A stretch of DNA of 64,000 bases from a virus (Duplodnaviria > Heunggongvirae > Uroviricota > Caudoviricetes): IMG/VR virus record IMGVR_UViG_3300012983_000002. One strand, 5' to 3'. The position numbers were made by a program, and so were the translations under genes. A model generated the notes under the pieces. It was given only the letters and a program-made list of their open reading frames with translations. It was not told where the DNA came from and did not search any database. Shown here one piece after another: positions 32,556 through 53,807 of this stretch. The first letter of the stretch is position 1. Each line of letters opens with the position of its first letter.

Positions 32556-32990
32556 ATGACCTCGGCAATTTATAGTGACCTATACAAAGACCTTACCACG
32601 AACCCAGACTTCTGTAATAAAATATCCAAAATACTTAAGGATATAGAATTAGCAGATAAAGCTGGCAACATGGAGGCAGCAAAGCAACATGTACAAGACC
32701 TTCTTGTAGCGTGCAACTTTAACGCCAGTCTCCTGGTTCCTTATTTCTTTCCGAGGTTTCCGGAATTTGAACCTATGACGTTATGGACTAGACCTCACTC
32801 ATTCTCTATGATGGGTCTGACTCTTCTTGGATCTCTTACCGTACAAGCTAGTCGCCAGATAGGTAAATGCGTTGACGGTAATACTGAATTACAAGTTAAG
32901 CTTAACGGATCCGAAAAAAGGCTTACTATCAAAGAATTATTTAATCGCAGTAAGAAGGAGGTAGCGTGTTCTCCGGAGCAGGCGGAATAA
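32556..32990 (+). CDS. terL: terminase large subunit N-extein (104 aa) plus split intein N-part (40 aa)
   Basis: TVQASRQIGK (Walker A) followed directly by intein block A CVDGNTEL...LTIKELF, then stop. Confidence 0.9.
   Translation: MTSAIYSDLYKDLTTNPDFCNKISKILKDIELADKAGNMEAAKQHVQDLLVACNFNASLLVPYFFPRFPEFEPMTLWTRPHSFSMMGLTLLGSLTVQASRQIGKCVDGNTELQVKLNGSEKRLTIKELFNRSKKEVACSPEQAE
32868..32987 (+). mobile_element. split intein, IntN (40 aa)
   Basis: Cys1 at 32868, CVDGNTELQVKLNG...LTIKELFN. Confidence 0.88.
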
Positions 32991-33099
32991 TGCTGTAAGC
33001 TATGTTGGTTGCTGTTACGATTGCGATTGTGAGCGAGGTTAATTTAAACATGTGTTGCAAAATAAATTAAATATTTGGAGTTAATTGTTAGTATTACTG

Positions 33100-33324
33100 T
33101 TAGCACCAAATAAGGGCGAAGCGGTCCTCCGCATCCCTAATGATCCTGTCACGCACAGCGCGTGCTTTCTTAACGTCTTTTGTCTTTAATGAGAAGCGCA
33201 GTCTACTCTGAGTAGGACCATCCCATACTGTAAGATGACACCACCAAATGTGTCCGTTCTTAAACAGATTGTGATTTTTATTACTAATTGTTGATCTCTT
33301 CCTTAAGACGATTGTTTGTTGCAT
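33100..33324 (-). CDS. small basic protein, possibly an integrase arm-type DNA-binding domain
   Basis: KNGHIWWCHL...RLRFSLKTKDVKKARAVRD pattern. Confidence 0.4.
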   Translation of the reverse strand: MQQTIVLRKRSTISNKNHNLFKNGHIWWCHLTVWDGPTQSRLRFSLKTKDVKKARAVRDRIIRDAEDRFALIWC

Positions 33325-34496
33325 TATAGTGTTTGTCCTTTGAAGTTAATACGAACCATCCAGCTCTCAGTACCTTCTAGCACAGTAGACTTGATGGGTT
33401 CTTCCAGTTCGTTGCTAAACTTATTAAATGTATCGGCAATAGCTGCCAACTTGGTCAGACCAATACCGATGAGAATCAAATAAACAGAATTACCTTCTGT
33501 ACACTTCACAGGCACGGTGTAGTGCGAAGTATTGTTAAGAATAACAGACAAATCCCCATGCGCTTCTTCGCAAATTCGTATAAGTTTTTCCGAAGCATAA
33601 TTGCTATTAGCTTCAATAATATCCACGTCGAATACGCGTACACCTTTTTCTACATGCAAATAGAACTCGCAAGCACCCTGGCTATCCGGCAGTTGATATA
33701 CTTCAATCTTACACGGAGTATTCTTTATTTGTCCGAGACGGTCGGTAAGTAACTTCTTAATCTCCTCAATATATACAGCAGGAGTTACCGCTGCAGACTC
33801 GGGAGAAATTACTACTTTACCATCAATGGTACACATATTAGTCGATGCGTCATATGCAGGAGTAAGTTCCAAACCTGTAACCGCAAACGGACACTTACAC
33901 AAATGTGCAGCTTCTGTAATAGCAGCCATTGTAAGCCAGGTGATGTGTGTAGTCTCCTTAGTTGCAGCCGTAGTAAGTCTTTGCTTGGATTGCTCCGTGA
34001 GGTCTACACGAACCTTAGCAAGAGGCCCAGTAAACATAAGACTTTCACCTCTTGTAAAGCGGCAATTAATGTTATCAGGAATCATCTTGTACAGATCCAC
34101 TGGAAGAGAGTGCTTGTCTAGGAAGCATAATGTTATTGCAGCGCCAGACGCATCAGCTATAGAAATTACATTCTTTTCAAAGTTAACAACCGCGTCCCTA
34201 TCTCCCGGCGTGAATGTGCAAGTACAAGCGTCTACAGTACTTGTGAACTTTAAAGCATCATCTTGTACACTATAGGTCACAACTTCATTCTGTCCGAAGC
34301 GATTAGACCCAAGAATAGTAGCCTTACTTTCAGGGAACATGCGTGCGATGGTATCTATGATAGCCAGTACTTCATCTCGCGTCACTCTGATCTTGCCTGA
34401 CTTATTATTGTTAGTGCAAAGATTTACGCGCTTACCTTCCTCGTTAATTTTGAACGGTCCGATTGTCATATGTATTAAATGAGTTAGGGGTACCAT
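33324..34496 (-). CDS. hypothetical protein
   Basis: 390 aa ORF. Confidence 0.7.
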   Translation of the reverse strand: MVPLTHLIHMTIGPFKINEEGKRVNLCTNNNKSGKIRVTRDEVLAIIDTIARMFPESKATILGSNRFGQNEVVTYSVQDDALKFTSTVDACTCTFTPGDRDAVVNFEKNVISIADASGAAITLCFLDKHSLPVDLYKMIPDNINCRFTRGESLMFTGPLAKVRVDLTEQSKQRLTTAATKETTHITWLTMAAITEAAHLCKCPFAVTGLELTPAYDASTNMCTIDGKVVISPESAAVTPAVYIEEIKKLLTDRLGQIKNTPCKIEVYQLPDSQGACEFYLHVEKGVRVFDVDIIEANSNYASEKLIRICEEAHGDLSVILNNTSHYTVPVKCTEGNSVYLILIGIGLTKLAAIADTFNKFSNELEEPIKSTVLEGTESWMVRINFKGQTL

Positions 34497-34535
34497 CCAG
34501 ATGGACGGTACCCCGATTAATGTTGTTAGGTGATG

Positions 34536-35132
34536 TTATATTACTGAATCAAAATTCATATCAACCTCAATACGCTTTCTCGATGCAAGATAATCGCATG
34601 CGTGAACAAAGCGCTGTAGCTTTGTCACTGGGATGGGAAGTTCTGTTCTGGAGAACTTATTTGTATTCCATTGTCCCATGTGTGATCTTATACAACCGGC
34701 AATAGTATCTACCACAGCAGGATCTATACGCACCCTGGGACAGTTGAAGGCTTGAGCGAAATTAATCCACTCATCTGCCCCAACCATCGGGTGCTCGAAA
34801 ATAGTCCTACTGTTGTTGGGTGGAAGTCCTTGCTTGCAGAAATCGTGCATAGCTAGGGATGCGTACACAATATCCTGGTCATTAGGATCCTGGATAGTAC
34901 TGATAATAAGCATATCCTCTGCTAACAACATTGCGGCAATGGTATGACGCACCAGTCCACCCTCACCCAAGGCGTAGGTGGGGTGGTACTTGCCTGAAGA
35001 TGATGCAGGTACGGTCCAGAAATAGTGATCTGGATCCTTGGTCATAAAATCTATAACAGCTTTGCTAAGTTCTGCGTTCTTAATACGAAATCTAATAAGC
35101 GTAATTAGTTTATCTTTATCTGTAATACTCAT
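34536..35132 (-). CDS. HD-domain phosphohydrolase
   Basis: YHP...GGLVRHT, AMHDFCK, EHP, HMGQW, HACDYLAS. Confidence 0.88.
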   Translation of the reverse strand: MSITDKDKLITLIRFRIKNAELSKAVIDFMTKDPDHYFWTVPASSSGKYHPTYALGEGGLVRHTIAAMLLAEDMLIISTIQDPNDQDIVYASLAMHDFCKQGLPPNNSRTIFEHPMVGADEWINFAQAFNCPRVRIDPAVVDTIAGCIRSHMGQWNTNKFSRTELPIPVTKLQRFVHACDYLASRKRIEVDMNFDSVI

Positions 35133-35136
35133 AACT

Positions 35137-36681
35137 TTAAATACATTCTAAACGTTTAATATGTGAGGGATGACGCAGCTTCTTGAGTGCTTTTGCTTCG
35201 ATCTGACGAATACGTTCTCTGGTAACGTCGAAACATTTACCAACATCTTCCAGGGTCTTAGGTGTTCCGTCCTCATCCAGACCGAATCGCATCATGAGGA
35301 TAGCCTGTTCCCTTTCGGTAAGAGCTTCCTTGAGTACAGCTCGAAGGTTTTCTTTAACTACCGTATCAGCTGCAGCTGTAGAGGGGCAGTCTGCAGAATC
35401 GTCCTCTATGAAATCCTCCATAGTAGCATCATCGCTTGAACCTACTGACATCTGCATCGAGATCGGTTGACGTGCTACACTGAGTAGACCCTTTACCTTG
35501 CCGGTAGGAATATCAACTACTTTAGCGATTTCTTCCACAGTAGGTTCCTGCTCTTCTCCCACAGTAAGTTCGTTCCTGGCTGTAGAGATTTTATTAATCG
35601 TCTCTACCATGTGTATAGGAACCCTGATAAGGCGCGACTTGTCTGCTATCGCGTGAGTGATAGCCTGACGTATCCACCACGTAGCGTAAGTGGAGAACTT
35701 GAACCCGCGCTGATACTCGAACTTATCCACAGCCTTCATGAGACCGATATTACCCTCCTGGATCAGATCCAGTAACGGCATACCTTTATTGGTATACTTC
35801 TTAGCAATCGAGATTACCAGACGCAGATTTGCCTTGATCATTTTTTCTTTCGCTCTTTGCTGCGCTTTTACCAATTTGAGGTATTTTGCCGCTTGAGGGT
35901 ACAGAATGCAGTGCGGTGTACGATGCTTCAGCTCAGACGATACAAGTACGTACGCTGCTTCTGGGGTTACTTTGTTAGACGACTCGATATAGACCTCTGC
36001 TTCTATCAGGCGTACCATTTCGGCTTCTAAATACTGCCGAAGTTCGTTTTCTATCTTTTCGTTAAAGTCCAGCGGAGCTACGATCTGGTACAGTACATCA
36101 GGCCCACAGCATCCCCAGAAATCAGGATCGTTATTCACAGTATTATACAAATCCTCCAGAGCCCTCTTAGCGTAGGCAAAATCCTCGCTCATATCACGCT
36201 CTTCAAGGTTTCTTATAAGTGAATCGTATCTACGATCTCCAGAAATAATAGATTCGAGAAGTTCCTTATAGAAATTTACAGCACCAAAGAACTCAAGAGA
36301 TGCTATAAATACAGCACTTGTAGCGTCTTCGATCTCTTTAGCTATAATGATTTCTTCTTCTTTATTAAGGAGCTCTGTACCGCTAACAGATTGCAGATAT
36401 GATTTGGTAGCGTCAGGAATACCCTCTTTAAGGTCTGGGCATAAATTCTCTTTACAGATTTCATCCCCTTCCTCGCACTCTTCGTTACATTCCTCGCAGT
36501 CTGTGCAATCTTCTTCTGGCTCGTCGTCAGCATCAAATTCTCCGGCTACTTCTTTTTCAAATGCTAAGAAAGGAAACCTCAGCGGGGGCATCGCGGCTAT
36601 ACGCCTCAACTCCTCCATCTGCGCTCTAGTTCTTCTTCTACGTTTTGTTTTCATAGTCGTATTACTTGATGTCATTTGCAA
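35137..36681 (-). CDS. rpoD: RpoD-like primary sigma70 factor
   Basis: Region 1.2 [16 protein letters not shown]; region 2 [13 protein letters not shown]...[38 protein letters not shown]; region 4 [28 protein letters not shown]. Confidence 0.95.
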
Positions 36682-37384
36682 AGTTTAAAATTCCGTAAGT
36701 ATCGATAGTGCCTTGAGTACCGCACTCATACTTACAACTAATGTCGTACTTAACTTCGGCCGGCAAGATTTCTCGCACAGCCAATGCCAGCTGGCGAATC
36801 TGCGCCTGAGCTGCTCCACTACAACGTTCTCTAAGAATATACCTCAGCTCTCTCAGATTAGTAGTGATGCCTATCTGCGTCTTGCATGCGTTGGGTAGAA
36901 CGGCTCTGGCCTCCTCTGGCCTTCCTTTACTTACAAGATACATGTAAGTGTCGGTGGCCTTTTCTAAGTGATCCAGAAATGCTTGCTTAGCTTCGTCGCT
37001 CCACGTATCGAACCAGATAGGTTTGATATATTGCACCTTACTGTTAAATTTACCAGACGAGTAGTTACAATAACGCTGAGACTCCTGAGAGAATGAACAT
37101 AATCGATGACGTACTAGCTGGTGAGTTACGGCTCTATCTGTTGTAATGATGGCAGATAGGGAACAGTGTTCCAGGACACTTTCGTGATGCTTGCCGATAA
37201 GCATACTTACGAACTGCATTGTCTTTTCCTCAGAGTAATTATCAGCTGGGTTTTTGTCAGCGCTTTGCCAGCAGATTCTTCCCATTGTTTCTACTTTTCT
37301 CAGTCCGCTTTTAAATTCTTCAGGCGTAGTGAGAACAGTAATGCTCTGATTAATAAGCTCAAAATTTTTTCCTACAATACTCAT
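36662..37384 (-). CDS. thyX: FAD-dependent thymidylate synthase
   Basis: [29 protein letters not shown]; start moved to ATG 37384 because the extension overlaps tRNA-Asn. Confidence 0.95.
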
Positions 37385-37418
37385 GTCTATATTTATTCTT
37401 TGGTTATTACAAAAATGT

Positions 37419-37488
37419 GCACGCCGGTCTGAATCGAACAGACGTCTCCCGGGTAACAGCCAGGGCTTTGCCACTAAGCTACAGCGTG
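37419..37488 (-). tRNA. tRNA-Asn(GTT)
   Basis: Cloverleaf, loop CT-GTT-AC, TTCGATT. Confidence 0.85.
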
Positions 37489-37581
37489 ATTATTACAAAT
37501 TAACTAAATAAGAGATACAGCAAAATTGCTATGCCTACGGCGGATAGAACCTCCATAAGAGTCACCAAACCTATAAATATT

Positions 37582-38160
37582 TCAAGGTTTCGAGTCTGAC
37601 TTGCTTCTCTGATCATCTTCAGGAACATAAAGCGTTTTACCGTATTCTTTGTAGTTTGTTGTTATGGTGTCTGTGTAATACTTATTATGACACTCACATT
37701 CAATATGTCCACTATGAATTGATAAATATTTTTTAAGTGTATTCCACCACTTAACAATAGCGTCCAGGTTTTCTACATCTCTTAGTCTGCCGTGGAATGT
37801 TATATGCCACACCAGACCGTAACACTCATCCATAGCTGGGGATACTGTCAGCTGTAAAGGACCCTCTGAGCCCGTAGGGAATGCTAACGCTTTACTATCC
37901 GCGTCCGACATTGCTATTATCTCATCATCCACGAGCTCTCCATCTTTAAACCACCTTGCGTATAAAGTAGGAGGAAGCACATAGCGATCGCCGCGAGCCC
38001 AGGCCCACTTCTCTCGATTAGACGTAATAAGCCTAGCAACCCAACAATGAGGATCTTCCATGTACTCTGGGAAATAATCATCGTCGTGCTTATACTTACC
38101 CAGTCGAGGTATCTCTGGAGCAACTACTAAATAACCTGACGCTTCTGCCCAAAAACTCAT
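37582..38160 (-). CDS. hypothetical protein
   Basis: 192 aa ORF. Confidence 0.7.
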   Translation of the reverse strand: MSFWAEASGYLVVAPEIPRLGKYKHDDDYFPEYMEDPHCWVARLITSNREKWAWARGDRYVLPPTLYARWFKDGELVDDEIIAMSDADSKALAFPTGSEGPLQLTVSPAMDECYGLVWHITFHGRLRDVENLDAIVKWWNTLKKYLSIHSGHIECECHNKYYTDTITTNYKEYGKTLYVPEDDQRSKSDSKP

Positions 38161-38283
38161 AGTAATTTGTTGTTGTTAAAGAATTCTTCAAGGATTTTTT
38201 CAGCTCTAGCTGCAGCAATTATTGCGCAAATAGCTCCTATAACCAACACCACCCCTAATACTGCGAACAATATTACTAAAAAA

Positions 38284-38619
38284 TTAAATAGGCAACTTCC
38301 CATATAGTTCTATTTGTTGTGTGTTTAGTTTTCCATTACGTATAGCGGCGTTAATAGCGTCGTTTCTCAATTCTCGCTGGCGCGTAGACCATTCCTCTTG
38401 TGCTGTAGGCGACACATAACACATTATTAATACACTTACGATAAGAATTACTGTAGTTATAATTGCACGATATACACTCAATGCTGGCGTTTGACGAAAC
38501 TCACACATAGCTGCATTAATCATGGCGACACTACCCGCAGTAATCACGACAATGAGGAATACCAGAAATCCAGGAGGCATAGTTATAGTAGAGTTATTAT
38601 GTTCTTCCTGGATTCCCAC
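38284..38619 (-). CDS. hypothetical membrane protein
   Basis: Two hydrophobic helices. Confidence 0.6.
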   Translation of the reverse strand: MGIQEEHNNSTITMPPGFLVFLIVVITAGSVAMINAAMCEFRQTPALSVYRAIITTVILIVSVLIMCYVSPTAQEEWSTRQRELRNDAINAAIRNGKLNTQQIELYGKLPI

Positions 38620-39731
38620 CAGGCATTTTCTTTATTCCAGTCATAGTGATTGCCGGTATCCTTTGTTCCATCTGGATATGTCTTATGCTCTATCCAGGTT
38701 CCGTCAGGATAGTGACCTATACCTATTACGGAAAGATCTGCACCGCGTTCCAATAACCATACAGCTGCAACAACACCAATAGACGCGTGCTCTTGTCCAG
38801 TGGATTCTGCAGCTCTAGCAAGCATTTCCCTGGGTAGATTTATATCATCATTAGTAGTAAGTACGTGTGATGGGCATGAGGGACATTCGTCTATGAATGC
38901 AGCCTCATTTCGCTCGTGTCTTAGTATGGCTAAATCTGTACGTGTACCTACGTCTTCTGGGTCGCCGTAGTAATGGTTCAGACGAGCAACAATGTCCCAC
39001 TCGCCTGAATCTATACGTTGACCTAGCTTGCGGCCTACTAAGTCTTTACCAGAACCTATTAGCAGTACTTTTTTATTTCTTACAACAAGTGGTTGTTGCG
39101 TTGTTGAATCTAAAATAGCATCTGCCCACATAGCCGAGAGTGCAGGAGGGAGTTCCTGTCTGTAATCTATATCAACAATTCCCCAGCTGGAGTTTGTGCG
39201 TAGAACTTTATGCTTACAAGAATGGTCGAATATAGCGCCAACGTTACCAGGCTTCCAGGCGTACAGTTGTCCGTTTAGTTTGAATATGGATTCTTTGTAG
39301 TCGCGATTATTTTTACAGGTCCAAGCCCCGTTCTGTACTATCTTTCGCCAGGTATCTTCAACGTGTACGGATGCCGTAATGCAGCATTCGTTTCCTGCTT
39401 TAATACAATCCGCAGCCCTCTTAAGAAGATATTGTTCTCGTATAGGTTGTGTTACTTGTAATAGCACACACACATCACCATCAGCAGGCTGGATTAACGC
39501 TTCTGCATATTCTAAGTCAGCGAGATGATCTTTGCATGCTGTAGGTATATGTTTCCATTTTTTAGGAAGTACAAGGGGTAACTCGCTTCTTTTACCTACA
39601 GTATATACAGCCACCTCGTCATCTATATACGCAGACTCGTTAAGTAACCAAGTTATAGTGTAGGGTGCTAAAAAGCGATTCTTTCCAGGAAATCTTGTAC
39701 TTTCCTTTACTGTAATAAATACATGTATCAT
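38583..39731 (-). CDS. NeuA-like cytidylyltransferase fused to a GT29 sialyltransferase-like domain
   Basis: STRFPGKN, LLQVTQPIR, LNGQLY, VDID; C-half LIGSG..L.G..LG..ID...DIVARLN...DVGTRTD, SIG..A...LL...LSVIG, H....E. Confidence 0.7.
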   Translation of the reverse strand: MIHVFITVKESTRFPGKNRFLAPYTITWLLNESAYIDDEVAVYTVGKRSELPLVLPKKWKHIPTACKDHLADLEYAEALIQPADGDVCVLLQVTQPIREQYLLKRAADCIKAGNECCITASVHVEDTWRKIVQNGAWTCKNNRDYKESIFKLNGQLYAWKPGNVGAIFDHSCKHKVLRTNSSWGIVDIDYRQELPPALSAMWADAILDSTTQQPLVVRNKKVLLIGSGKDLVGRKLGQRIDSGEWDIVARLNHYYGDPEDVGTRTDLAILRHERNEAAFIDECPSCPSHVLTTNDDINLPREMLARAAESTGQEHASIGVVAAVWLLERGADLSVIGIGHYPDGTWIEHKTYPDGTKDTGNHYDWNKENAWWESRKNIITLL

Positions 39732-47178: not shown

Positions 47179-47231
47179 AATCTCAATATTACTTAATACA
47201 AAAAGCGTCCCATCTAACAGACAGGACGCTA

Positions 47232-47302: not shown

Positions 47303-47308
47303 AAAAAA

Positions 47309-47382
47309 TACCACGGGTAGGATTCGAACCTACGACCTGCCGCGTATGAAGCGGCCGCTCTAACCAACTAAGCTACCGGGGC
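47309..47382 (-). tRNA. tRNA-Met(CAT), probably elongator
   Basis: CCGC-TTCATAC-GCGG. Confidence 0.88.
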
Positions 47383-47447
47383 ATTTACCTCCCCAAGATA
47401 TACCCAGGGAGGGGGTGCAGAAGTTATCTGCACGGATTACTTAAAGA

Positions 47448-47533
47448 CGGGTTGCTGAGGTGTCGATCCCCAATGGTGTCATCCATCCAACTGTTTTCAA
47501 GACAGTGTTCGTAGCCGTACGAATTAACAACCC
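47448..47533 (-). tRNA. tRNA-Ser(TGA), atypical D and T loops
   Basis: CTGT-CTTGAAA-ACAG, long variable arm, T-loop ATCGACA. Confidence 0.75.
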
Positions 47534-47551
47534 ATTTACTTTTTATATTAC

Positions 47552-47635
47552 TGGGAAGAGGTGGATTCGAACCACCGTAGGTCGTAGACCAGCAGATTTA
47601 CAGTCTGCCCCATTTGACCACTCTGGTATCTTCCC
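47552..47635 (-). tRNA. tRNA-Tyr(GTA)
   Basis: GCAGA-CTGTAAA-TCTGC, class II arm. Confidence 0.92.
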
Positions 47636-47656
47636 TATGTTACGTGACATTATGTA

Positions 47657-47745
47657 AGCCGGCTCAGGGAGTCGAACCCTGCTTAAGGCTATTAACCCGT
47701 TTGCCATATTACAAGTATGGTGCCTAACCGATCGGCTTAGCCGGC
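47657..47745 (-). tRNA. tRNA-Thr(TGT) with an unusually long variable region
   Basis: CCATA-CTTGTAA-TATGG, 22-nt variable region, CAGGG-TTCGACT-CCCTG. Confidence 0.75.
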
Positions 47746-47751
47746 GTTAAC

Positions 47752-47823
47752 TCTGGCACACTCGAATCGAACGAGCCTCGTCCTCTGCCCAAAAGAGGTG
47801 CATACCCAGCCTGCCCGCGCCAG
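47752..47823 (-). tRNA. tRNA-Pro(TGG)
   Basis: CCTCT-TTTGGGC-AGAGG. Confidence 0.82.
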
Positions 47824-47844
47824 CTTATTACTATACTATATAGA

Positions 47845-47917
47845 TGGAGCAGAAGAGACTCGAACTCTCAACCTTCTGAATGCAAATCAGACGCTCTGCC
47901 AATTGAGCTACAACCCC
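47845..47917 (-). tRNA. tRNA-Ala(TGC)
   Basis: TCTGA-TTTGCAT-TCAGA. Confidence 0.92.
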
Positions 47918-47930
47918 GTTATGTAGCAAT

Positions 47931-47959
47931 AATATACGCTATATAAAAAATTAAAGCAA
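47931..47959 (-). promoter_or_regulatory. sigma70-type promoter of the Ala-Pro-Thr-Tyr-Ser-Met-Gln tRNA run
   Basis: TTGCTT-N17-TATATT with an AT-rich upstream tract, about 13 nt before tRNA-Ala. Confidence 0.55.
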
Positions 47960-47992
47960 CTATATTTTTGCTACATGTAATAAAAAATTTAT

Positions 47993-48514
47993 TTAATAAA
48001 GTTTAGCTGTAATCTTACCGTTACTGTTAAGCATGCAAGCGTACTTAGTACTATCCATGAACCGAGCCATACTATAAACGTAGTGTTCGATATTGTACGC
48101 CAGCTCTCTAACCTCTCTATTATACCCGTTCTTCAACATTTCATTAAGGGTGTCGATCATTTTAGGAAGATGTTCCATACATTCCTTTAAAGCTAAAAGA
48201 TCGTTGCGTTCGCAGTTAAGTGTGTGACTACGTGCCTTGCTAAACCACTTTTCTGTGTATGGCCTATCTTCCTCAGGCGCCAGAGTAAAAGATGACGTCT
48301 GTTCGTGAAATAACTTATGAGCTGCTCTAATATACTTTGCTCTATCTTCTGAGGTTTGTACAAAAGAAGGCATACCGCCGATATACCCACCAGGACCTTC
48401 CTTGGTTAAGAATGCTCTATGAACCTCGACACCATTTACTATTACTCTGAAATCTACTCTATCTTCACTAGGCTTACTGCTACGTTTCAGTGTATATTTT
48501 GTTTCTGTGTTCAT
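47993..48514 (-). CDS. hypothetical protein
   Basis: 173 aa ORF. Confidence 0.7.
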   Translation of the reverse strand: MNTETKYTLKRSSKPSEDRVDFRVIVNGVEVHRAFLTKEGPGGYIGGMPSFVQTSEDRAKYIRAAHKLFHEQTSSFTLAPEEDRPYTEKWFSKARSHTLNCERNDLLALKECMEHLPKMIDTLNEMLKNGYNREVRELAYNIEHYVYSMARFMDSTKYACMLNSNGKITAKLY

Positions 48515-48651
48515 ATTATTTGTCGAATGTAATGATTACTTTCCAATATTAAGGGCCATCTCAAGAAGAGCAACTCCGTCGTTTAGTAATGCTGTAAGTT
48601 TTCGAATGTCTATAAGTGTAGCTTTATCGATATAAGGAACAATCGGTAAGT

Positions 48652-48882
48652 TCATTTTTTTAAAATTTTATATTTAATACCATTGTCAGTATATTCTGCT
48701 GTAAACGGCGTATAGCACATACCACATAAAAACGAATCTTCTAGGTCGTCTTTAGATTTAACGATGCGAGCTTTCATTAACCGTTCGCACCCACACGAAG
48801 GACAAGAGACAACCTTACCAGCTTCGCGAGCAGAATTCAGCTTTCTGTAATACTCTTTTATTTTCTGTTGTTCTTTGGTCAT
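48652..48882 (-). CDS. small zinc-ribbon protein
   Basis: CPSCGC...CGMC. Confidence 0.6.
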   Translation of the reverse strand: MTKEQQKIKEYYRKLNSAREAGKVVSCPSCGCERLMKARIVKSKDDLEDSFLCGMCYTPFTAEYTDNGIKYKILKK

Positions 48883-48927
48883 AGTGTTTAGAAACTATAT
48901 TTTTTCTACCTGTAATAAAAAATTTAT

Positions 48928-49113
48928 TTAGCTTCTTGCTAGCAGGATTAAGATTAACGCGCCTGTAGCTAAAAAGAGACCACACCCTATGAATGCGATA
49001 AGTCCTATAGTACCAATGATATCTATATAACGTTTATGCATTTCAAATTCCTTATCAGCCTCTTGCAATAATGCAATCGCATCTTTTAACTTTTCTTTTT
49101 CTTCTTCGGTCAT
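48928..49113 (-). CDS. small membrane protein
   Basis: C-terminal TM. Confidence 0.55.
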   Translation of the reverse strand: MTEEEKEKLKDAIALLQEADKEFEMHKRYIDIIGTIGLIAFIGCGLFLATGALILILLARS

Positions 49114-49361
49114 TTGTCGAATGTAATGATTACTTCTTTATCGATAGGTATTTCCACATGCCTTTCACCGTTAATGAATTTAATAACTTTATCTGAACTT
49201 ATCTTTGGAGCAGTGGAACATTTATAAATCTTTCCATCATCCACCTTTATATTACATTCCAGGATTCTGTCCTTACCCCAAATCGCCCATGATACAAGAA
49301 AACCTAATATAAATAATCCTATACATGTTACTATACCCCCTAAAACATCAGCAGTATCCAT
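49110..49361 (-). CDS. small membrane-anchored protein
   Basis: N-terminal TM. Confidence 0.6.
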   Translation of the reverse strand: MDTADVLGGIVTCIGLFILGFLVSWAIWGKDRILECNIKVDDGKIYKCSTAPKISSDKVIKFINGERHVEIPIDKEVIITFDK

Positions 49362-49380
49362 ATTAAGTACAGGTTTAATA

Positions 49381-49620
49381 TTAATAATTATTCTTTATTG
49401 TGTATTTTCCATTGCTAGTATATTTGGTACCAGCTACGTCAAAATACAATATTCCGTCTTTTTCTTCGTAGTAATTAGAGTAGTACGTATCTGAAAAAAG
49501 ACCGTTATCCACTTCAATAGTATAGCGGTACGTCTGTTCTTTTTTATATTTATTGTCGCAAGCCGAACAACCAAAGAAAAAGACACCAAACAAAAGTAGT
49601 AATTCTAAGAGGCAACCCAT
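49381..49620 (-). CDS. small putative lipoprotein
   Basis: Hydrophobic N-terminus followed by FGCSAC. Confidence 0.5.
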   Translation of the reverse strand: MGCLLELLLLFGVFFFGCSACDNKYKKEQTYRYTIEVDNGLFSDTYYSNYYEEKDGILYFDVAGTKYTSNGKYTIKNNY

Positions 49621-49721
49621 ATAAGTTAATGTGTGATTTTATATTCTTTTGTGTAAATAAAACCACCGCCCAAGCAGATGCCTGGGCGGTGACTATCTTT
49701 AATACTTATCAATAAAAACAA

Positions 49722-49806
49722 CGGAGAGTACTGGAGTCGAACCAGTTCGACCTTTCGGTCGGCTACGGTTTAGCAAACCGACGCATTACCGTTCTGCCAA
49801 CCCTCC
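49722..49806 (-). tRNA. tRNA-Ser(GCT)
   Basis: CGGT-TTGCTAA-ACCG, long variable arm. Confidence 0.9.
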
Positions 49807-49835
49807 GTACAGGAAGTCAAGGACTCGAACCCTGA
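49807..49835 (-). repeat. exact 29-bp copy of the tRNA-Trp 3' half (att-like)
   Basis: gtacaggaagtcaaggactcgaaccctga identical to 50090..50118. Confidence 0.92.
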
Positions 49836-49846
49836 AAATTATCAAT

Positions 49847-50074
49847 TCAATTCTGTAAAGTTGTCTTTTTACAGTTTATTCTATTCGTGAGCTCGTTATA
49901 ATCAAAAGTAAGTTTCATCTTTTTAGGACACTTCTTTGAAGTGAACACAAAATCGATCGTTACTTCACTCTTATCATCATCGATCTCGTTCTTCTCAATG
50001 ATGAGTTTACCTTCTTTTATATCTTCTTGTAAAATGTCAGTTACAAGCCTCATATAGTCTTTAAGAGTTTTCAT
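49847..50074 (-). CDS. small hypothetical protein inside the tRNA-Trp duplication
   Basis: 75 aa ORF filling the space between the repeats. Confidence 0.7.
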   Translation of the reverse strand: MKTLKDYMRLVTDILQEDIKEGKLIIEKNEIDDDKSEVTIDFVFTSKKCPKKMKLTFDYNELTNRINCKKTTLQN

Positions 50075-50092
50075 AAGCTTTCTAATAGAGTA

Positions 50093-50164
50093 CAGGAAGT
50101 CAAGGACTCGAACCCTGATGACCGGTTTTGGAGACCGGGATCTTAACCATTAGATGAACTTCCT
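50093..50164 (-). tRNA. tRNA-Trp(CCA)
   Basis: CCGGT-CTCCAAA-ACCGG. Confidence 0.92.
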
Positions 50165-50178
50165 ACGATGTTAAACAA

Positions 50179-50267
50179 CACGCCAGGTAGGACTCGAACC
50201 TACAAAGACATTTCCAATTACCATAGTTTTACGTCTCGTGCTTAGAAGGCACGTTGGTTACTGGCGC
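50179..50267 (-). tRNA. non-canonical tRNA-Arg(TCT): no D-arm, 33-nt variable arm
   Basis: GCGCCAG/CTGGCGT acceptor, CGTGC-CTTCTAA-GCACG, GTAGG-TTCGAGT-CCTAC. Confidence 0.7.
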
Positions 50268-50340
50268 ATTAGCATTATAATACTCTATATTATTGCCGAA
50301 AAAATTATTACTAATTCTCTACACAAAGTAAAATATAATT

Positions 50341-50853
50341 TTAAGCGTAGTACAGAATATTTTTTTCTTCCTCTGATAACTTAATGATTTTGGCTTTCTT
50401 ATCTTTGTGTGAAATTTTATTAGCTCCACGATAATGCTCAGTCTGACCGTGACAATTAGGACATAAAATTTGTAAATTATTCCAGGCATTATCATGATGA
50501 TTACCATTTACATGATGTAACTCTAACGGAATTTCTTTACCTCTCCATTCGGATAAACCGCAACATTCGCAGCGTTTTTCTTTTAGGCCAAATTTAAATA
50601 AATAGCCTTTAAGCTTATAGGCGGTAATGTAGTGTTTATTTTGAAACACTAGTTCTAGTTTTTCTTTAGTAACCGTTCTATGACTCTTCTTGCTAGTACC
50701 TCTACCTCCCTGATTGGGCAAAAAACAGTTATATTTTTTAGCAAGACGAGCATATGCATTGTACGATATGCCCATTACGCGCGCCGCTCCTGTGATAGTT
50801 TTTGTAGAATTATATGCGGCCTCTATCTCTTCTTTTGAAAAATTATAACTCAT
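50341..50853 (-). CDS. free-standing HNH homing endonuclease
   Basis: CECCG...LELHHVNGNHHDNAWNNLQILCPNCH plus N-terminal HTH; start moved to ATG 50853 (MSYNF). Confidence 0.88.
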   Translation of the reverse strand: MSYNFSKEEIEAAYNSTKTITGAARVMGISYNAYARLAKKYNCFLPNQGGRGTSKKSHRTVTKEKLELVFQNKHYITAYKLKGYLFKFGLKEKRCECCGLSEWRGKEIPLELHHVNGNHHDNAWNNLQILCPNCHGQTEHYRGANKISHKDKKAKIIKLSEEEKNILYYA

Positions 50854-50913
50854 AATCGATAGACACTTTATAATATAATATTTAGTGTTTGTCAATTATG
50901 AGTTATAATTTTT
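50838..50913 (-). promoter_or_regulatory. 19-bp inverted repeat covering the HNH start codon, with a TTGACA-N17-TATAAA promoter in its loop
   Basis: Arms 50838..50856 and 50895..50913; -35 at 50890..50895, -10 at 50867..50872. Confidence 0.75.
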
Positions 50914-50914
50914 A

Positions 50915-51254
50915 TAGCACGGACGGGACTCGAACCCGTACAGTCTAACGACCGGGAGATTTTCTTACTACTCTCAGTTTCCTGAGCCATTTATGTTGTA
51001 GTCTGGACTATATCATCATCCTAAAAGGATGTCACGTGCATAGTCTCTGAACCTTCCTCATTTTACAGAGGCTTGGCTGCGAATTACCCAATCTCCAGAT
51101 TTTTAAGAGCGTTCGCATTTATCGTTTCCGATTGTGCTTTAGCATCTGAAGCTCTAAGGGCTTCCTCGCAATTCGCGCGATTCATTCTATATGTTACCAT
51201 ATAGACGCTCAGTATTGGTAAGTCTCCTGTGTCTACCAATTCCACCACCGTGCC
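50915..51254 (-). tRNA. tRNA-Leu(TAA) interrupted by a group I intron
   Basis: Exons 51220..51254 and 50915..50963 join to give GGAGA-CTTAAAA-TCTCC. Confidence 0.92.
50964..51219 (-). ncRNA. ORF-less group I intron in the tRNA-Leu anticodon (256 nt)
   Basis: P1 CUU/GAG; GCGAATTGCGAGGAAG, AATTCGCAGCCAAGC, GGTTCAGAGACTA, GATATAGTCCAG; terminal G. Confidence 0.92.
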
Positions 51255-51265
51255 TTATTGCTGGA

Positions 51266-51336
51266 TAGGAGCACTGGGAATCGAACCCAGAATGAACGGT
51301 TAAAAGCCGCATATTATACCATTTAATTATACTCCC
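51266..51336 (-). tRNA. tRNA-Lys(TTT)
   Basis: GCGG-CTTTTAA-CCGT. Confidence 0.88.
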
Positions 51337-51432
51337 AAAGTTGTGTTGTGCGGTTATTTTACAACTACATATTTTACAATGCTAGCTAAAAATAAAATTT
51401 TATACACGAAATAAAAATAATTTTTATACAAA

Positions 51433-51467
51433 CAGGCTGGGGAGATGTATTTAATCTCCCCAGCCTG
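51433..51467 (-). terminator. intrinsic terminator
   Basis: 14-bp perfect stem caggctggggagat/atctccccagcctg. Confidence 0.75.
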
Positions 51468-51618
51468 ATGATCAACTCCAAAAAATGAACAAGACCGTTA
51501 TTGTGTCCGTCGTCACCACGCAGAACATCCTTTTTACGCTACCAACAATTATCAGACCTGGGAGGATGTGACCCTGTGTCGATAACTGCCAACACCATCC
51601 GAGCCAACCCGAATGGAA

Positions 51619-51690
51619 TAGGGGCGGTGGGATTCGAACCCACACCCAAACGATTATGAGTCGTCCGCTCCACCTTCGAGCTGCACCCCC
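51619..51690 (-). tRNA. tRNA-Ile2(CAT), lysidine type
   Basis: CGA-CTCATAA-TCG anticodon arm as in ileX; a Met identity cannot be excluded. Confidence 0.75.
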
Positions 51691-51696
51691 ATTAAA

Positions 51697-51778
51697 TACC
51701 ACCAGTCGGACTCGAACCGACACGCTGTTACGCAGAAGAACCTAAATCTACCGGGTCTACCAATTTCCCCATGGTGGC
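51697..51778 (-). tRNA. tRNA-Leu(TAG)
   Basis: Loop TT-TAG-GT, class II arm. Confidence 0.88.
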
Positions 51779-51893
51779 ATTTACGATCGCAGATAATAAC
51801 TACGCTCATTTATATATAGCATATACTACGTTATTTTTTCAGCATCGCAACACTAAACTTTTACTATGACACATTTATTTTTATAATACCCCT

Positions 51894-52241
51894 ATGCTTC
51901 TACAAAGCGAGATAGCCGAGGAATACAGTGTAACAGATACACAAGTACTTACACCAAACGGTTGGAGAAAAGTAAATAAGGTATATAAAACAATACCCCT
52001 GGAAACAGTGCGTATTGTTACTTCTAATTGTGAACTTATATGTTCGCTCCATCACCTTATTAAGACTCCTTACGGATGGGTACACGCCTATACGCTTTGT
52101 CAGGGAGATATTGTACTTACAGAGAACGGTTCTGAGGCGGTACTAATCGCTGAAGAAACAGGAGAAATGGAGGAGCTATACGATATAACGGTAGATGATC
52201 CTAGTGGTGAGTTTTACTCTAATGGTATACTGTCGCACAAC
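51894..52241 (+). mobile_element. split intein, IntC (116 aa)
   Basis: VLTPNGW, block B ICSLHH, block F LYDITV, block G SHN followed by Ser+1. Confidence 0.9.
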
Positions 52242-53807
52242 TCTACAACGTTTGCGGCACGTCAGTTAATTCTATCGCATCTTCTTCCAAACTATAAAAG
52301 TCTGTATGTATGCCCTCAGCACGATCAATTAAAGACTTACGCCAGGCGTCTTGCTGAAATGGAAGCAGCTTTTCGTTTCGATAATGGTAAGCAGAACCTG
52401 TACAACAAGGTATACGAAGACGGATCTGCTATCGACCTTAATTACTGCTTAACTACCGCTAATGCTGTTCGTGGTAAGTCTGTAATTGAGGTACTGCTAG
52501 ATGAGGCTCAGGGTATTAATCCTGATATTGTACCAGAACTTCTTTATGTGCAGACTACGGCGCAATATCCTTCCACTATCTTCGCCGGCACAGCCCTGTC
52601 CATCGATACTCTCCTGGAAGCTAAATGGCAGGCATCCTCTATGGGAATGTGGCACATACGAGCCATGGACGATGTTCACTGGTTAAACATGTATGATAAG
52701 GATACGCTATCGAAAGTGTGTGATAATCCTCAAGGTCCTACATGTCCTTATACTGGTAAATTACTAGATGTTACTCGTGGTTGCTATGTGCATGCTAATC
52801 AGAAGGCCATGGCTATTAACGAGATTGGTATTCACGTACCGCAATGCATTATCCCTGATCTGGCGTACAATCCTATCCAGTGGGGTAAGATATATAAAAA
52901 AATACAAGACGACGATTTTAATAAAGTGTTACAAGAATGTTTCGGAATTGCAGTTGCTGAGGGTAGTCGAGAAATCACTGAACAAGACCTTCAGCGCTTA
53001 TGTGTCTTAACAGATAATCACGAAGAGATTAAGCAGAAATGCAGGAACGGCTATTATCGCCTTATTGTTTCTGGGTGCGACTGGGGTGGCTCCGACTACA
53101 ACCAGGCTATTCAGACTAAGACGTCATATACCGTGCATTGCATTATCGGTGTAGCTCCTGATGATGTTATAGATATTCTTTACTACAAGCGTTATAGCGG
53201 TATGGATTACCGAGATATTGCCGAGGAGATTGCTAATACACATAAAGCCTATAATGGGCACGTAGTAGCTTCGGACTTCGGTGTAGGTCTCGCATACAAT
53301 ACTGAACTGCGAAATCGTATTCCTTATGACCGTCACTTCATTATGAATTACGTAGGACAGGCAGCAGCTCCCCTGGCTACTCCTAAAGGACAGCACATGA
53401 TTAATCAGCTTGCTCTTAATCGTACGGAAGCTCTTACTAATGTGTTTAAGGATGTTAAGGATCCTCATCTAAAAATAAGAGCTGGTAGTTGGGGTTACAC
53501 TTCCTCCTATCTTCTGGATTGGCTCAACATGTATCGTGTGCCTGTTGATATGCCTAGCGGTCAGACTGCATTCAAATATATTCGAAGCGCTACTAAGGCA
53601 GATGATGCTCTGCACGCATTTACCTTTGCCTATGTGCTTGCTAAGTTCTTCCTAGGAGTACCCCTGGTCAATGACTTAGCTTTGGAGCAGAGGTTGAGAT
53701 CTGTGCTATATGGTCCAGGATCTGCTGGGGTTATAGCTCCCAGAAGCTCTCCTGAACTTGATCGATTACTCAGAGGAGGAGATCCTAATTACGTAATTTC
53801 TCTTTAA
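51894..53807 (+). CDS. terL: split intein C-part (116 aa) plus terminase large subunit C-extein (521 aa)
   Basis: LYDITV...FYSNGILSHN/STT; then SLYVCP, VLLDEAQ (Walker B), FAGTA, nuclease SGCDWGG, SDFGVG, DDALHA. Confidence 0.92.
   Translation: MLLQSEIAEEYSVTDTQVLTPNGWRKVNKVYKTIPLETVRIVTSNCELICSLHHLIKTPYGWVHAYTLCQGDIVLTENGSEAVLIAEETGEMEELYDITVDDPSGEFYSNGILSHNSTTFAARQLILSHLLPNYKSLYVCPQHDQLKTYARRLAEMEAAFRFDNGKQNLYNKVYEDGSAIDLNYCLTTANAVRGKSVIEVLLDEAQGINPDIVPELLYVQTTAQYPSTIFAGTALSIDTLLEAKWQASSMGMWHIRAMDDVHWLNMYDKDTLSKVCDNPQGPTCPYTGKLLDVTRGCYVHANQKAMAINEIGIHVPQCIIPDLAYNPIQWGKIYKKIQDDDFNKVLQECFGIAVAEGSREITEQDLQRLCVLTDNHEEIKQKCRNGYYRLIVSGCDWGGSDYNQAIQTKTSYTVHCIIGVAPDDVIDILYYKRYSGMDYRDIAEEIANTHKAYNGHVVASDFGVGLAYNTELRNRIPYDRHFIMNYVGQAAAPLATPKGQHMINQLALNRTEALTNVFKDVKDPHLKIRAGSWGYTSSYLLDWLNMYRVPVDMPSGQTAFKYIRSATKADDALHAFTFAYVLAKFFLGVPLVNDLALEQRLRSVLYGPGSAGVIAPRSSPELDRLLRGGDPNYVISL

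What the first reader, a model, noticed from the sequence alone, without database searches (positions are those of the whole stretch)
32556..53807. Terminase split by an atypical intein whose halves lie 18.9 kb apart
Seen: terL-N ends ASRQIGK|CVDGNT...(40-aa IntN), and terL-C begins with a 116-aa IntC ending SHN|STT. Splicing would rebuild Walker A GKST in a 625-aa TerL. Both halves are on plus in the right order but are separated by 18,903 bp of minus-strand genes (sigma, thyX, tRNAs), each with its own divergent upstream region. Known: short-IntN TerL split inteins (AceL-TerL type) exist, and fractured genes typically have only a homing endonuclease between halves. Inference: obligate protein trans-splicing from independent transcripts controls packaging; potentially a useful new ligation tool.
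Basis: partly seen in the sequence, partly recalled or inferred. Interest (0 to 1): 0.85.

Follow-up and report, generated by a model that had tools for sequence, protein, structure and literature searches.

The report
Phage terminase split by scattered intein halves
A 196-kb gut phage encodes its DNA-packaging motor (large terminase) as two separate genes 18.9 kb apart that must be stitched together at the protein level by a short-N/long-C split intein; this intein type is already known, but here it is fixed in a large phage clade whose two halves have drifted to different places in different genomes.

Summary
Window 32556-32990 (+) encodes 104 aa of TerL N-terminus plus a 40-aa IntN that starts with Cys. 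Window 51894-53807 (+) encodes a 116-aa IntC ending SHN, then 521 aa of TerL starting with Ser. The gap is 18,903 bp of minus-strand genes and 13 tRNAs.

The predicted join (ASRQIGK|STTFAARQL, inside Walker A) matches an uninterrupted relative (RASRQVGK|STTIGARQL). Another relative has a contiguous intein at the same site. Cys1, the block B His, the block F Asp, the terminal His-Asn and Ser+1 are invariant in 108 IntC and 22 N-half homologues. The IntC profile hits the solved atypical split intein VidaL (E 7e-22) and CatC.

The genome holds one copy of each piece and no other terL. An independent assembly repeats the layout with an 18,437-bp gap. Other relatives have gaps of 1.1 and 4.5 kb, C-before-N order, opposite strands, or separate contigs.

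Verdict: a real, almost certainly active, naturally split intein of the known GOS/AceL-TerL/VidaL type. Splicing is inferred, not shown, and "controls packaging" has no support. It is a new member of a known kind with an unusual dispersed arrangement. The scan had not reported it before.

The parts
32556..32990 (+). terL-N gene: N-extein plus IntN, 144 aa, with its own ATG and stop
   Evidence: There are 26 homologues of 89-174 aa with the same layout. The gene is single copy in the genome.
32556..32867 (+). TerL N-extein, 104 aa, ending in the first half of Walker A (ASRQIGK)
   Evidence: It aligns with residues 1-105 of the uninterrupted TerL P0119 and 13-115 of the contiguous-intein TerL P0121. 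G103 and K104 are invariant.
32868..32987 (+). IntN, 40 aa: Cys1, the block A motif CVDGNT, a conserved core of about 27 aa ending in LF, then a variable tail
   Evidence: C105 is invariant in 22 homologues, and tail length varies so that IntN spans 31-69 aa. It resembles the N-terminus of the Pab PolII intein and of the Kuttervirus TerL intein.
32991..51893 (-). 18,903-bp gap: about 30 minus-strand ORFs and 13 tRNA genes
   Evidence: A 93%-identical relative has 18,437 bp here, and a 60-68% relative has 4,509 bp containing sigma-70 and thyX. No direct repeat of 8 nt or more sits at the borders.
35137..36681 (-). Sigma-70 family factor inside the gap
   Evidence: Pfam Sigma70_r2, r3, r4 and r1_2, E 1e-22 to 2e-5. 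Also present in the gap of relatives L002 and L010.
36662..37474 (-). thyX (flavin-dependent thymidylate synthase) inside the gap. The listed GTG start overlaps tRNA-Asn, so the true start is probably further in.
   Evidence: Pfam Thy1, E 2e-46; tRNA-Asn at 37419-37488.
47231..51779 (-). Region holding 12 of the gap's 13 tRNA genes, interspersed with small ORFs, ending 114 bp before terL-C
   Evidence: ARAGORN.
50341..50895 (-). 184-aa ORF with a weak HNH endonuclease match; a possible free-standing homing endonuclease near the C-half
   Evidence: Pfam HNH, E 1.2e-3, below the cut-off. The 93% relative has a different ORF with a weak MTES_1575 match at this position.
51894..53807 (+). terL-C gene: IntC plus C-extein, 637 aa, with its own ATG and stop
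   Evidence: PHROG 675 terminase large subunit, E 1.5e-12. 114 of 120 relatives have the same layout. The gene is single copy.
51894..52241 (+). IntC, 116 aa: acidic N-terminus MLLQSEIAEE, block B S51-x-x-H54, block F D97, block G S114-H115-N116
   Evidence: H54, D97, S114, H115 and N116 are invariant in 108 sequences. The profile hits VidaL (6vgv) at E 7e-22 and CatC (6dsl_B) at 2.7e-9.
52242..53804 (+). TerL C-extein, 521 aa, starting S117-T118 (the second half of Walker A), with Walker B VLLDE and the nuclease domain
   Evidence: S117 and T118 are invariant. It aligns with 106-604 of the uninterrupted P0119. Weak Terminase_6C hit; tblastn to TerL of Salmonella phage Arash and Vibrio phages.

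Best explanation
The phage's only large terminase subunit is made from two independently expressed polypeptides: TerL(1-104)-IntN (16.2 kDa) and IntC-TerL(105-625) (71.6 kDa).

Proposed mechanism:
1. The roughly 27-residue conserved core of IntN carries block A with the Cys1 nucleophile. It docks into the largely pre-formed IntC, which carries blocks B, F and G, and completes a HINT fold.
2. Class 1 splicing chemistry follows: an N-S acyl shift at Cys105, transesterification to Ser117 (+1), cyclisation of Asn116, and an O-N shift.
3. The product is a 625-aa (70.3 kDa) TerL whose Walker A loop ASRQIGK-ST exists only after ligation. Neither half alone can be an ATPase, so packaging depends on trans-splicing.

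Proposed history:
1. An intein at the Walker A GK|S/T site, a site that holds contiguous inteins in relatives and in Kuttervirus phages, was broken between blocks A and B.
2. In this lineage the break then filled with opposite-strand cargo. A sigma-70/thyX block came first, then more genes, tRNAs and small cassettes.
3. In sister lineages the two now-autonomous genes were moved apart, swapped in order or inverted.

The split is most simply a frozen accident that is hard to reverse, not a regulatory invention.

Shown here: the gene structure, the junction, residue conservation, single-copy status, reproducibility of the arrangement, and homology to solved atypical split inteins. Inferred: association of the halves, the splicing reaction, separate promoters, and the order of evolutionary events.
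For: 1. Both ORFs and their motifs are as described.
2. The predicted ligation product matches the uninterrupted homologue P0119 residue for residue across the junction. P0121 has a 166-aa contiguous intein between the same GK and ST.
3. Cys1, G103 and K104 are invariant in 22 N-halves. H54, D97, S114, H115, N116, S117 and T118 are invariant in 108 IntC sequences that are only 35-94% identical overall.
4. The IntC profile hits VidaL at E 7e-22, CatC at 2.7e-9, and gp41-1, DnaX, NrdJ-1 and other inteins.
5. The 196.5-kb genome (CheckV 100%) has one copy of each of the four pieces. It gave no match to two Pfam TerL ATPase-domain models, Terminase_6N and TerL_ATPase, and it has no orphan intein half; the two other inteins are contiguous, in NrdD and an RNAP subunit.
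6. An independent ENA assembly at 93% identity has the same collinear layout with an 18,437-bp gap, and Logan contigs cover each border.
7. Relatives place the halves 1.1 kb apart (G003), 4.5 kb apart (L010), 11.7 kb apart in C-before-N order (G002), on opposite strands (L013), or on different contigs (G001). No transcript-level or DNA-level rejoining can be general.
8. The flanks of the uninterrupted terL in L006 are Metallophos and SMC_N upstream, and 174-aa, about 370-aa and 435-aa genes downstream. These equal the outer flanks of the N-half and the C-half in the 93%-identical relative (L002/L004), whose layout matches the window. The gap is therefore an insertion into an ancestral one-piece locus.
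9. On a C-extein tree, a 76-row clade with 100% SH-aLRT support contains only split forms.
10. Co-folding of IntC with IntN gave ipSAE 0.59 against a best control of 0.00. Partner pLDDT was 65-66 and the runs shared at least 77% of contacts. This is a weak pass by the tool's calibration (the mark was reached by 58 of 80 solved complexes and 2 of 110 mismatched pairs, but at 0.60 or under by only 7 of those 80 and by both mismatches). It may also reflect likeness to solved split inteins.
Against: No experiment or protein-level data show the ligated product.

No promoter could be assigned with confidence to either half. The sigma-70 consensus scan is unsuited to this host range. An AT-rich box upstream of terL-C may belong to the opposite strand.

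The co-fold support is only weak. Public runs gave only short contigs of roughly 90%-identical relatives, so transcription of the halves is not demonstrated.

The order of evolutionary events rests on a midpoint-rooted quick tree with long basal branches.
Confidence: 0.85

Rival explanations
1. The two polypeptides associate through the intein halves but do not splice. The terminase would work as a non-covalent two-chain enzyme, with the intein remnants acting only as a dimerisation module.
For: No product has been observed. Some split inteins have low activity in vitro (PMC11766414, PMC11923092). The co-fold support is only weak.
Against: Every residue needed only for chemistry is invariant across 108 IntC and 22 N-half sequences whose other positions vary freely: Cys1, the block B His, the block F Asp, the penultimate His, the terminal Asn and Ser+1. 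Leaving 156 intein residues inside the Walker A loop would be expected to block ATP binding (inference).
Confidence: 0.07
2. The arrangement is an assembly artefact, or the 18.9-kb segment is an excisable or invertible element whose removal restores a contiguous intein-containing terL before late expression.
For: The window comes from a metagenome assembly. Developmentally excised elements that restore genes are known in bacteria (my own knowledge).
Against: An independent ENA assembly and Logan contigs repeat the layout. Each half has its own stop or start codon. No direct repeat of 8 nt or more lies at the borders. No recombinase was found in the gap. None of the joints listed among laid contigs removes the gap; 13 further joints were not shown. 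Relatives with swapped order, opposite strands or separate contigs could not be repaired by excision.
Confidence: 0.03
3. The two ORFs are decaying remnants of a dead terL, and packaging is done by another, unrecognised terminase.
For: The Pfam match of the C-half to terminase models is weak, so a very divergent second terminase could in principle also escape detection.
Against: Both halves are intact, single-copy and conserved without frameshifts in more than 100 diverged genomes. No other TerL-like sequence was found in a genome rated complete, searched with this TerL's own pieces and relatives and with two Pfam ATPase-domain models. The C-extein keeps Walker B and 60 or more invariant positions.
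Confidence: 0.02
4. The split is adaptive. Expressing the small N-half and the large C-half from different temporal promoters would gate terminase activity.
For: The halves must have separate promoters. Splitting inside Walker A makes activity strictly dependent on both. The split state is fixed in a large clade.
Against: There is no evidence of different timing. The positions and neighbours of the halves differ among relatives, which argues against a conserved regulatory context. Fixation is equally expected from an irreversible neutral ratchet. This rival concerns purpose, not mechanism, and is compatible with the best explanation.
Confidence: 0.15

Closest known systems
GOS-TerL and AceL-TerL atypical naturally split inteins, and their consensus Cat (Dassa 2009, PMC2677866; Thiel 2014 and Bachmann & Mootz 2015 as cited in PMC11766414)
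   Same: The host protein is a phage large terminase. The break lies between block A and block B, giving a short IntN (25-37 aa there, 40 aa here with a core of about 27) and a long IntC (104-122 aa there, 116 here). AceL-TerL, like this one, uses Cys1 and class 1 chemistry. The IntC profile hits CatC at E 2.7e-9.
   Different: Those came from aquatic or Antarctic metagenome fragments; the GOS locus was described as a 'fractured gene'. Here the halves sit in a complete 196-kb gut phage genome 18.9 kb apart, and they are rearranged among relatives. GOS-TerL uses Ser1/Cys+1; this one uses Cys1/Ser+1.
VidaL atypical split intein (PDB 6vgv/6vgw)
   Same: It is the best solved relative of the IntC: profile E 7e-22, single-sequence E 8e-13, aligned over IntC residues 11-117 including block B, block F and the terminal SH(N).
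   Different: VidaL was developed as a tool with a short IntN sequence (PMC11185735). Its native host gene and genomic context were not available to me. The aligned sequences are clearly diverged.
Contiguous TerL mini-intein of Kuttervirus phages (e.g. Salmonella phage Maynard, intein Cys110-Asn268)
   Same: Same insertion site in Walker A (ARQSGK|C...SHN|TT) and a related sequence: tblastn covers residues 18-212 of the C-half at 28% identity, and the N-terminal strand CVRGDT...LTIEELHKRF is similar.
   Different: It is one uninterrupted ORF that splices in cis; there is no split.
'Fractured genes' of phages (Dassa et al. 2009, PMC2677866)
   Same: A conserved phage enzyme gene is broken at an intein, with foreign DNA between collinear halves. 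A relative (G003) has just 1.1 kb between the halves.
   Different: The definition has a single free-standing homing-endonuclease gene and hundreds of bases between the halves. Here there are 18.9 kb, about 30 ORFs and 13 tRNAs, with only a sub-threshold HNH candidate.
Cyanobacterial DnaE split intein (Ssp/Npu DnaE)
   Same: The two halves of an essential enzyme are encoded at unlinked loci, expressed separately and joined by protein trans-splicing (my own knowledge; the problem is discussed in PMC2677866).
   Different: It is a cellular chromosome gene with the canonical split site (long IntN, short IntC), a different host protein and a different intein family.

Membership tests
Class 1 intein (HINT splicing domain) | Nucleophile (Cys/Ser/Thr) as first intein residue, within block A | tested here: met
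   C105 in CVDGNT is invariant in 22 N-half homologues.
Class 1 intein (HINT splicing domain) | Block B T/S-x-x-H | tested here: met
   S51-L-H-H54. The His is 108/108; the Ser is 100/108, with Ala in 8.
Class 1 intein (HINT splicing domain) | Block F Asp, block G penultimate His, terminal Asn, and a +1 nucleophile | tested here: met
   D97, H115, N116 and S117 are each 108/108.
Class 1 intein (HINT splicing domain) | Significant sequence similarity to solved inteins | tested here: met
   VidaL E 7e-22, gp41-1 3e-13, DnaX 1e-11, CatC 2.7e-9. Pfam Intein_splicing alone is below its cut-off.
Class 1 intein (HINT splicing domain) | Catalyses excision and ligation | not testable with these tools
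   Needs co-expression or in vitro assay.
Naturally split intein | The N and C parts are encoded by separate genes, each with its own start and stop | tested here: met
   Reproduced in an independent assembly.
Naturally split intein | No contiguous copy of the host gene in the same genome | tested here: met
   tblastn of the four pieces and of P0119/P0121 finds one copy of each. No other match to two Pfam TerL ATPase-domain models, Terminase_6N and TerL_ATPase.
Naturally split intein | The halves bind each other | tested here: inconclusive
   Co-fold ipSAE 0.59 against a best control of 0.00; partner pLDDT 65-66; at least 77% shared contacts. This is 'weak support' by the tool's calibration (the mark was reached by 58 of 80 solved complexes and 2 of 110 mismatched pairs, but at 0.60 or under by only 7 of those 80 and by both mismatches) and may reflect memory of solved split inteins.
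Atypically split inteins (GOS-TerL / AceL-TerL / Cat / VidaL) | Break between block A and block B: a short IntN and an IntC of more than 100 aa carrying blocks B, F and G | tested here: met
   IntN is 40 aa (conserved core about 27 aa). IntC is 116 aa with blocks B, F and G.
Atypically split inteins (GOS-TerL / AceL-TerL / Cat / VidaL) | Homology of IntC to characterised members | tested here: met
   VidaL E 7e-22; CatC E 2.7e-9.
Atypically split inteins (GOS-TerL / AceL-TerL / Cat / VidaL) | Same insertion point in TerL as GOS-TerL and AceL-TerL | not tested
   The extein sequences of those inteins were not retrievable (searches failed).
Fractured gene arrangement (Dassa 2009) | The halves are adjacent and collinear, with one free-standing homing-endonuclease gene between them | tested here: not met
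   The halves are collinear, but the gap is 18,903 bp with about 30 ORFs and 13 tRNAs. The only candidate is an HNH match at E 1.2e-3, below the cut-off.
Large terminase subunit (T4 gp17-like / Terminase_6) | Walker A, Walker B and a C-terminal RNase H-like nuclease, with homology to known TerL | tested here: met
   PHROG 675 E 1.5e-12. tblastn to annotated TerL of Salmonella phage Arash (E 1e-29) and Vibrio phages. Walker A is rebuilt as ASRQIGKST and Walker B is VLLDE. Pfam Terminase_6C is only weak.

The most novel reading that the evidence does not exclude
In this clade of large gut phages the split of terL is not just tolerated but used. Because the two halves are free-standing genes under separate control, and the Walker A loop exists only after ligation, trans-splicing would act as a post-translational switch that times, or conditions, the start of DNA packaging. 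The break point itself would have become a preferred landing site where new cargo accumulates: the sigma factor, thyX, tRNAs and small cassettes.
Probability: 0.12. Interest if true: 0.8.

Novelty: new member of a known kind. Interest (0 to 1): 0.5.

Why it matters
1. It gives a complete-genome context for the atypical TerL split inteins. Those characterised so far that I could trace came from metagenomic sequence: GOS-TerL (PMC2677866), AceL-TerL (PMC11766414) and PolB16 (PMC10189870).

2. One set of relatives shows nearly every stage that the 'gene-breaking' model of Dassa et al. postulates:
   - no intein
   - a contiguous mini-intein
   - a contiguous intein with a LAGLIDADG endonuclease
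   - halves 1.1 kb apart
   - halves 4.5 and 18.9 kb apart
   - halves swapped in order, inverted or unlinked

   This makes the origin and irreversibility of split inteins directly testable by comparative genomics.

3. It supplies more than 100 diverged natural Cys1/Ser+1 short-IntN split inteins from gut phages, presumably adapted to about 37 °C. AceL-TerL, by contrast, is cold-adapted and slow (PMC11766414). They are candidate starting points for protein-labelling tools.

4. For phage annotation, terL in this clade (probably the 'Zeta' crAss-like group) is incomplete unless the 140-aa N-half gene is found elsewhere in the genome. This matters for completeness checks and TerL phylogenies.

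Tried and rejected
- **IMG/VR relatives of the N-half:** found none, with a single protein or with an alignment. Megablast and tblastn of the halves against GenBank phages gave no near relatives.
- **The genome search on ENA/Logan loci:** not possible. Distances in L008, L011 and L012 are therefore known only as 'partner not within 10 kb'.
- **Promoter work:**
  - The sigma-70 consensus scan was uninformative.
  - TATATAG is not enriched.
  - The longer TATATATAGCA box (4 copies, one upstream of terL-C) probably serves the opposite strand, so I make no claim of co-regulation.
- **Electrostatic pairing of the halves:** the IntC N-terminus is consistently acidic (mean -4.1), but the charge of the matching IntN segment varies from -4 to +5. 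Not claimed.
- **Public reads:**
  - Only short Logan contigs of roughly 90% relatives from animal gut runs were available.
  - Contigs from an RNA library touch both halves, but this does not prove transcription.
  - Uncovered parts mean nothing.
- **Co-fold:** weak pass only.
- **Papers I could not read:** Bachmann & Mootz 2015, Stevens 2018 and Burton 2020 are not held, and Dassa 2009 has no supplement text.
- **'Gratiaviridae':** considered as the phage group and rejected after reading PMC8008677.

Full report
**Observation**

The window is the minus strand of positions 78918-142917 of a 196,501-bp IMG/VR virus record that CheckV rates as complete.

- ORF 32556-32990 (+) gives 144 aa ending ...TVQASRQIGK|CVDGNTELQVKLNGSEKRLTIKELFNRSKKEVACSPEQAE*.
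- ORF 51894-53807 (+) gives 637 aa beginning MLLQSEIAEEYSV... and reading ...FYSNGILSHN|STTFAARQL... at residues 107-125.
- The distance from stop to start is 18,903 bp.
- The space between is filled with minus-strand ORFs. These include a sigma-70 factor, an HD-domain protein, ThyX, a PP-binding protein and a weak HNH candidate, plus 13 tRNA genes.

**Is it a terminase, and is the junction right?**

The C-half matches PHROG 675 (terminase large subunit, E 1.5e-12). By tblastn it matches the annotated TerL of Salmonella phage Arash and several Vibrio phages.

Among the 120 best relatives in a 5.8-billion-protein collection:
- 114 have the same architecture, with IntC at the very N-terminus followed by the C-extein.
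- P0119 (618 aa) is an uninterrupted TerL. Its sequence RASRQVGK-STTIGARQL aligns without a gap to the predicted ligation product ASRQIGK-STTFAARQL.
- P0121 (796 aa) carries a contiguous 166-aa intein (C...SHN) between the same GK and ST.

The cultured Kuttervirus phages have a related contiguous mini-intein at this same Walker A position (ARQSGK|C...SHN|TT). In phage Maynard it is annotated as Cys110-Asn268.

**Is the intein likely active?**

- In 22 N-half homologues (45-96% identical), Cys1 and the preceding G-K are invariant. A core of about 27 residues (C-x-x-x-x-T ... [IL]-x-x-[LI]-F) is conserved, followed by a tail of variable length.
- In 108 IntC sequences (35-94% identical), the block B His (H54), the block F Asp (D97), S114-H115-N116 and the +1 Ser-Thr are all 100% conserved. 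The block B Ser is 93% conserved.
- A profile of the IntC hits the solved atypical split intein VidaL at E 7e-22, the consensus atypical TerL intein CatC at 2.7e-9, and many canonical inteins.

IntN holds only block A, and IntC holds blocks B, F and G. This is the 'atypical' split first noted for the GOS terminase locus (PMC2677866) and later exploited as AceL-TerL, GOS-TerL, Cat and VidaL (PMC11766414, PMC10189870, PMC11185735).

A co-fold of IntC with the last 50 residues of the N-half scored ipSAE 0.59 against 0.00 for the best of three controls. Partner pLDDT was 65-66 and the runs shared at least 77% of contacts. The tool calls this weak support: the mark was reached by 58 of 80 solved complexes and 2 of 110 mismatched pairs, but at 0.60 or under by only 7 of those 80 and by both mismatches. 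Solved split inteins may also have been remembered.

**Is it an artefact, or is there another copy?**

- tblastn of the four pieces, and of the intact relatives, against the whole genome finds exactly one copy of each. Two Pfam TerL ATPase-domain models, Terminase_6N and TerL_ATPase, find nothing else.
- The genome has two other inteins, but both are contiguous. One is in NrdD and carries an HNH domain; the other is in an RNA-polymerase subunit and carries LAGLIDADG and Hint modules. There is therefore no orphan half that could pair with either terL piece.
- An independent ENA assembly (202,268 bp; halves 93-95% identical) has the N-half at 94661-95086 and the C-half at 113524-115425 on the same strand, 18,437 bp apart. 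Its gap also begins with the HD, sigma-70 and thyX genes. Logan contigs from another sample cover each border.
- No direct repeat of 8 nt or more flanks the gap. None of the joints listed among laid contigs removes it; 13 further joints were not shown.

**What relatives show**

The uninterrupted terL of L006 sits, as a lone plus-strand gene, between a minus-strand Metallophos/SMC_N/helicase block and minus-strand genes of 174 and about 370 aa followed by a 435-aa plus-strand gene. In the 93%-identical relative, whose layout matches the window, the first block flanks the N-half on its outer side and the second set flanks the C-half on its outer side. The gap is therefore an insertion into an ancestral one-piece locus, at the intein.

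The gap and the arrangement vary widely:

| Relative | Arrangement |
|---|---|
| G003 (high-GC MAG contig) | 1,100 bp, collinear, IntN 29 aa |
| L010 | 4,509 bp, collinear, with sigma-70, thyX and HU |
| ENA relative and this window | 18.4 and 18.9 kb, collinear |
| G002 (horse-gut MAG, 203-kb contig) | C-half first, N-half 11.7 kb downstream, same strand |
| L013 | N-half about 8.7 kb downstream of the C-half, opposite strand |
| L008, L011, L012 | partner not within 10 kb |
| G001 (rabbit-gut MAG) | halves on different contigs |

Two more distant relatives (G004, G005) have contiguous inteins with LAGLIDADG endonucleases at the same GK|S site.

On a quick maximum-likelihood tree of C-exteins, a 76-row clade with 100% SH-aLRT support, which includes this phage, contains only split forms. 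The intein-less and contiguous forms lie in a poorly resolved basal grade among other split forms. That tree is midpoint-rooted and has long basal branches, so the order of events is not settled.

**Mechanism**

I conclude with about 85% confidence that TerL is produced by protein trans-splicing of two separately made precursors. The ATPase cannot exist before ligation, because the break lies inside Walker A.

Separate transcription is inferred for this genome: a common transcript would have to run about 21 kb antisense through some 30 genes. It is forced in the relatives with inverted or swapped halves.

I found no evidence that the split regulates packaging. The lack of a conserved context for the halves fits a frozen accident followed by drift.

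**Comparison with what is known**

- The intein is a new, diverged member of the known atypical split TerL/VidaL family.
- Unlinked split-intein halves are known from cyanobacterial DnaE (my own knowledge).
- Phage 'fractured genes' were defined with a single endonuclease gene and hundreds of bases between the halves (PMC2677866). That definition is not met here.
- The phage itself fits the 'Zeta' crAss-like group: 145-192 kb, rich in inteins and introns, fragmented RNAP genes, and recoding in some members (PMC7886860). That paper mentions 'unknown forms of gene fragmentation' and, in the passages I read, no split terL. I did not test the group assignment by phylogeny.
- Searches of the held literature for split inteins in terminases found no description of this clade or of dispersed halves in a phage. 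The library is incomplete.

**Verdict**

Interest is moderate. This is a clean, well-populated natural example that is useful for intein evolution, tool mining and phage annotation, but it is not a new kind of system.

Noticed in passing
G000:C1:73211-73942 and about C1:33017-36262 (same genome, outside the window): There are two further, contiguous inteins. One with an HNH_3 endonuclease sits in the anaerobic ribonucleotide reductase NrdD. LAGLIDADG and Hint modules sit in an RNA polymerase Rpb1-domain-5 protein. The phage is intein-rich.
   Followed up: partly
Relatives P0018, P0023, P0039, P0041, P0118, P0122 and others (31 of 114 split-type TerL-C proteins): A second, contiguous intein lies in or next to the Walker B motif of the C-extein (...LLDE|C...HN|CQ..., or a few residues upstream in P0041). 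Some terminases therefore need one trans-splicing and one cis-splicing event. This window's copy lacks it.
   Followed up: partly
L008, L009, L012 (relatives): Their terL halves translate to the database proteins only with TAG read as Gln. Stop-codon recoding and the split terL therefore coexist in part of the clade; this window uses the standard code for both halves.
   Followed up: no
window 51811-51821 (and genome C1 positions 180782, 156482, 27444): The 11-mer TATATATAGCA occurs four times in the 196.5-kb genome, always on the window plus strand and in intergenic DNA, each followed 17-18 nt later by TTT(T/A)CA. One copy lies between tRNA-Leu and terL-C. The other three have no same-strand ORF downstream, so it may be a promoter read on the opposite strand.
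   Followed up: partly
window 46945-47233 and 49806-50090: Contigs from one animal-gut run skip exactly 287 bp and 283 bp here. These are the two small tRNA-bracketed cassettes that another note on this window describes. They are therefore present or absent among related strains, and the terL gap is still gaining or losing small inserts.
   Followed up: partly
window 50341-50895 (-) and L004 8164-9066 (-): Just upstream of terL-C, this phage has a 184-aa ORF with a sub-threshold HNH match. The 93%-identical relative instead has a 300-aa ORF with a weak MTES_1575 match, which I take to be a restriction-endonuclease-like domain. This may be turnover of free-standing nucleases next to the C-half.
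   Followed up: no
L023 1483-3401 (G003, MAG labelled Lysinibacter, high GC): The same atypical split (IntN 29 aa; IntC starting MLLDIEIAEE) occurs with only 1.1 kb between the halves on a high-GC contig binned with an actinobacterium. The split allele thus spans very different phage and host backgrounds. A 414-aa opposite-strand ORF with no Pfam match fills the gap.
   Followed up: partly
window 36662-37488: The longest thyX ORF (GTG at 37474) overlaps tRNA-Asn (37419-37488) on the same strand. The real thyX start is probably downstream, since the Pfam match begins at residue 59.
   Followed up: no
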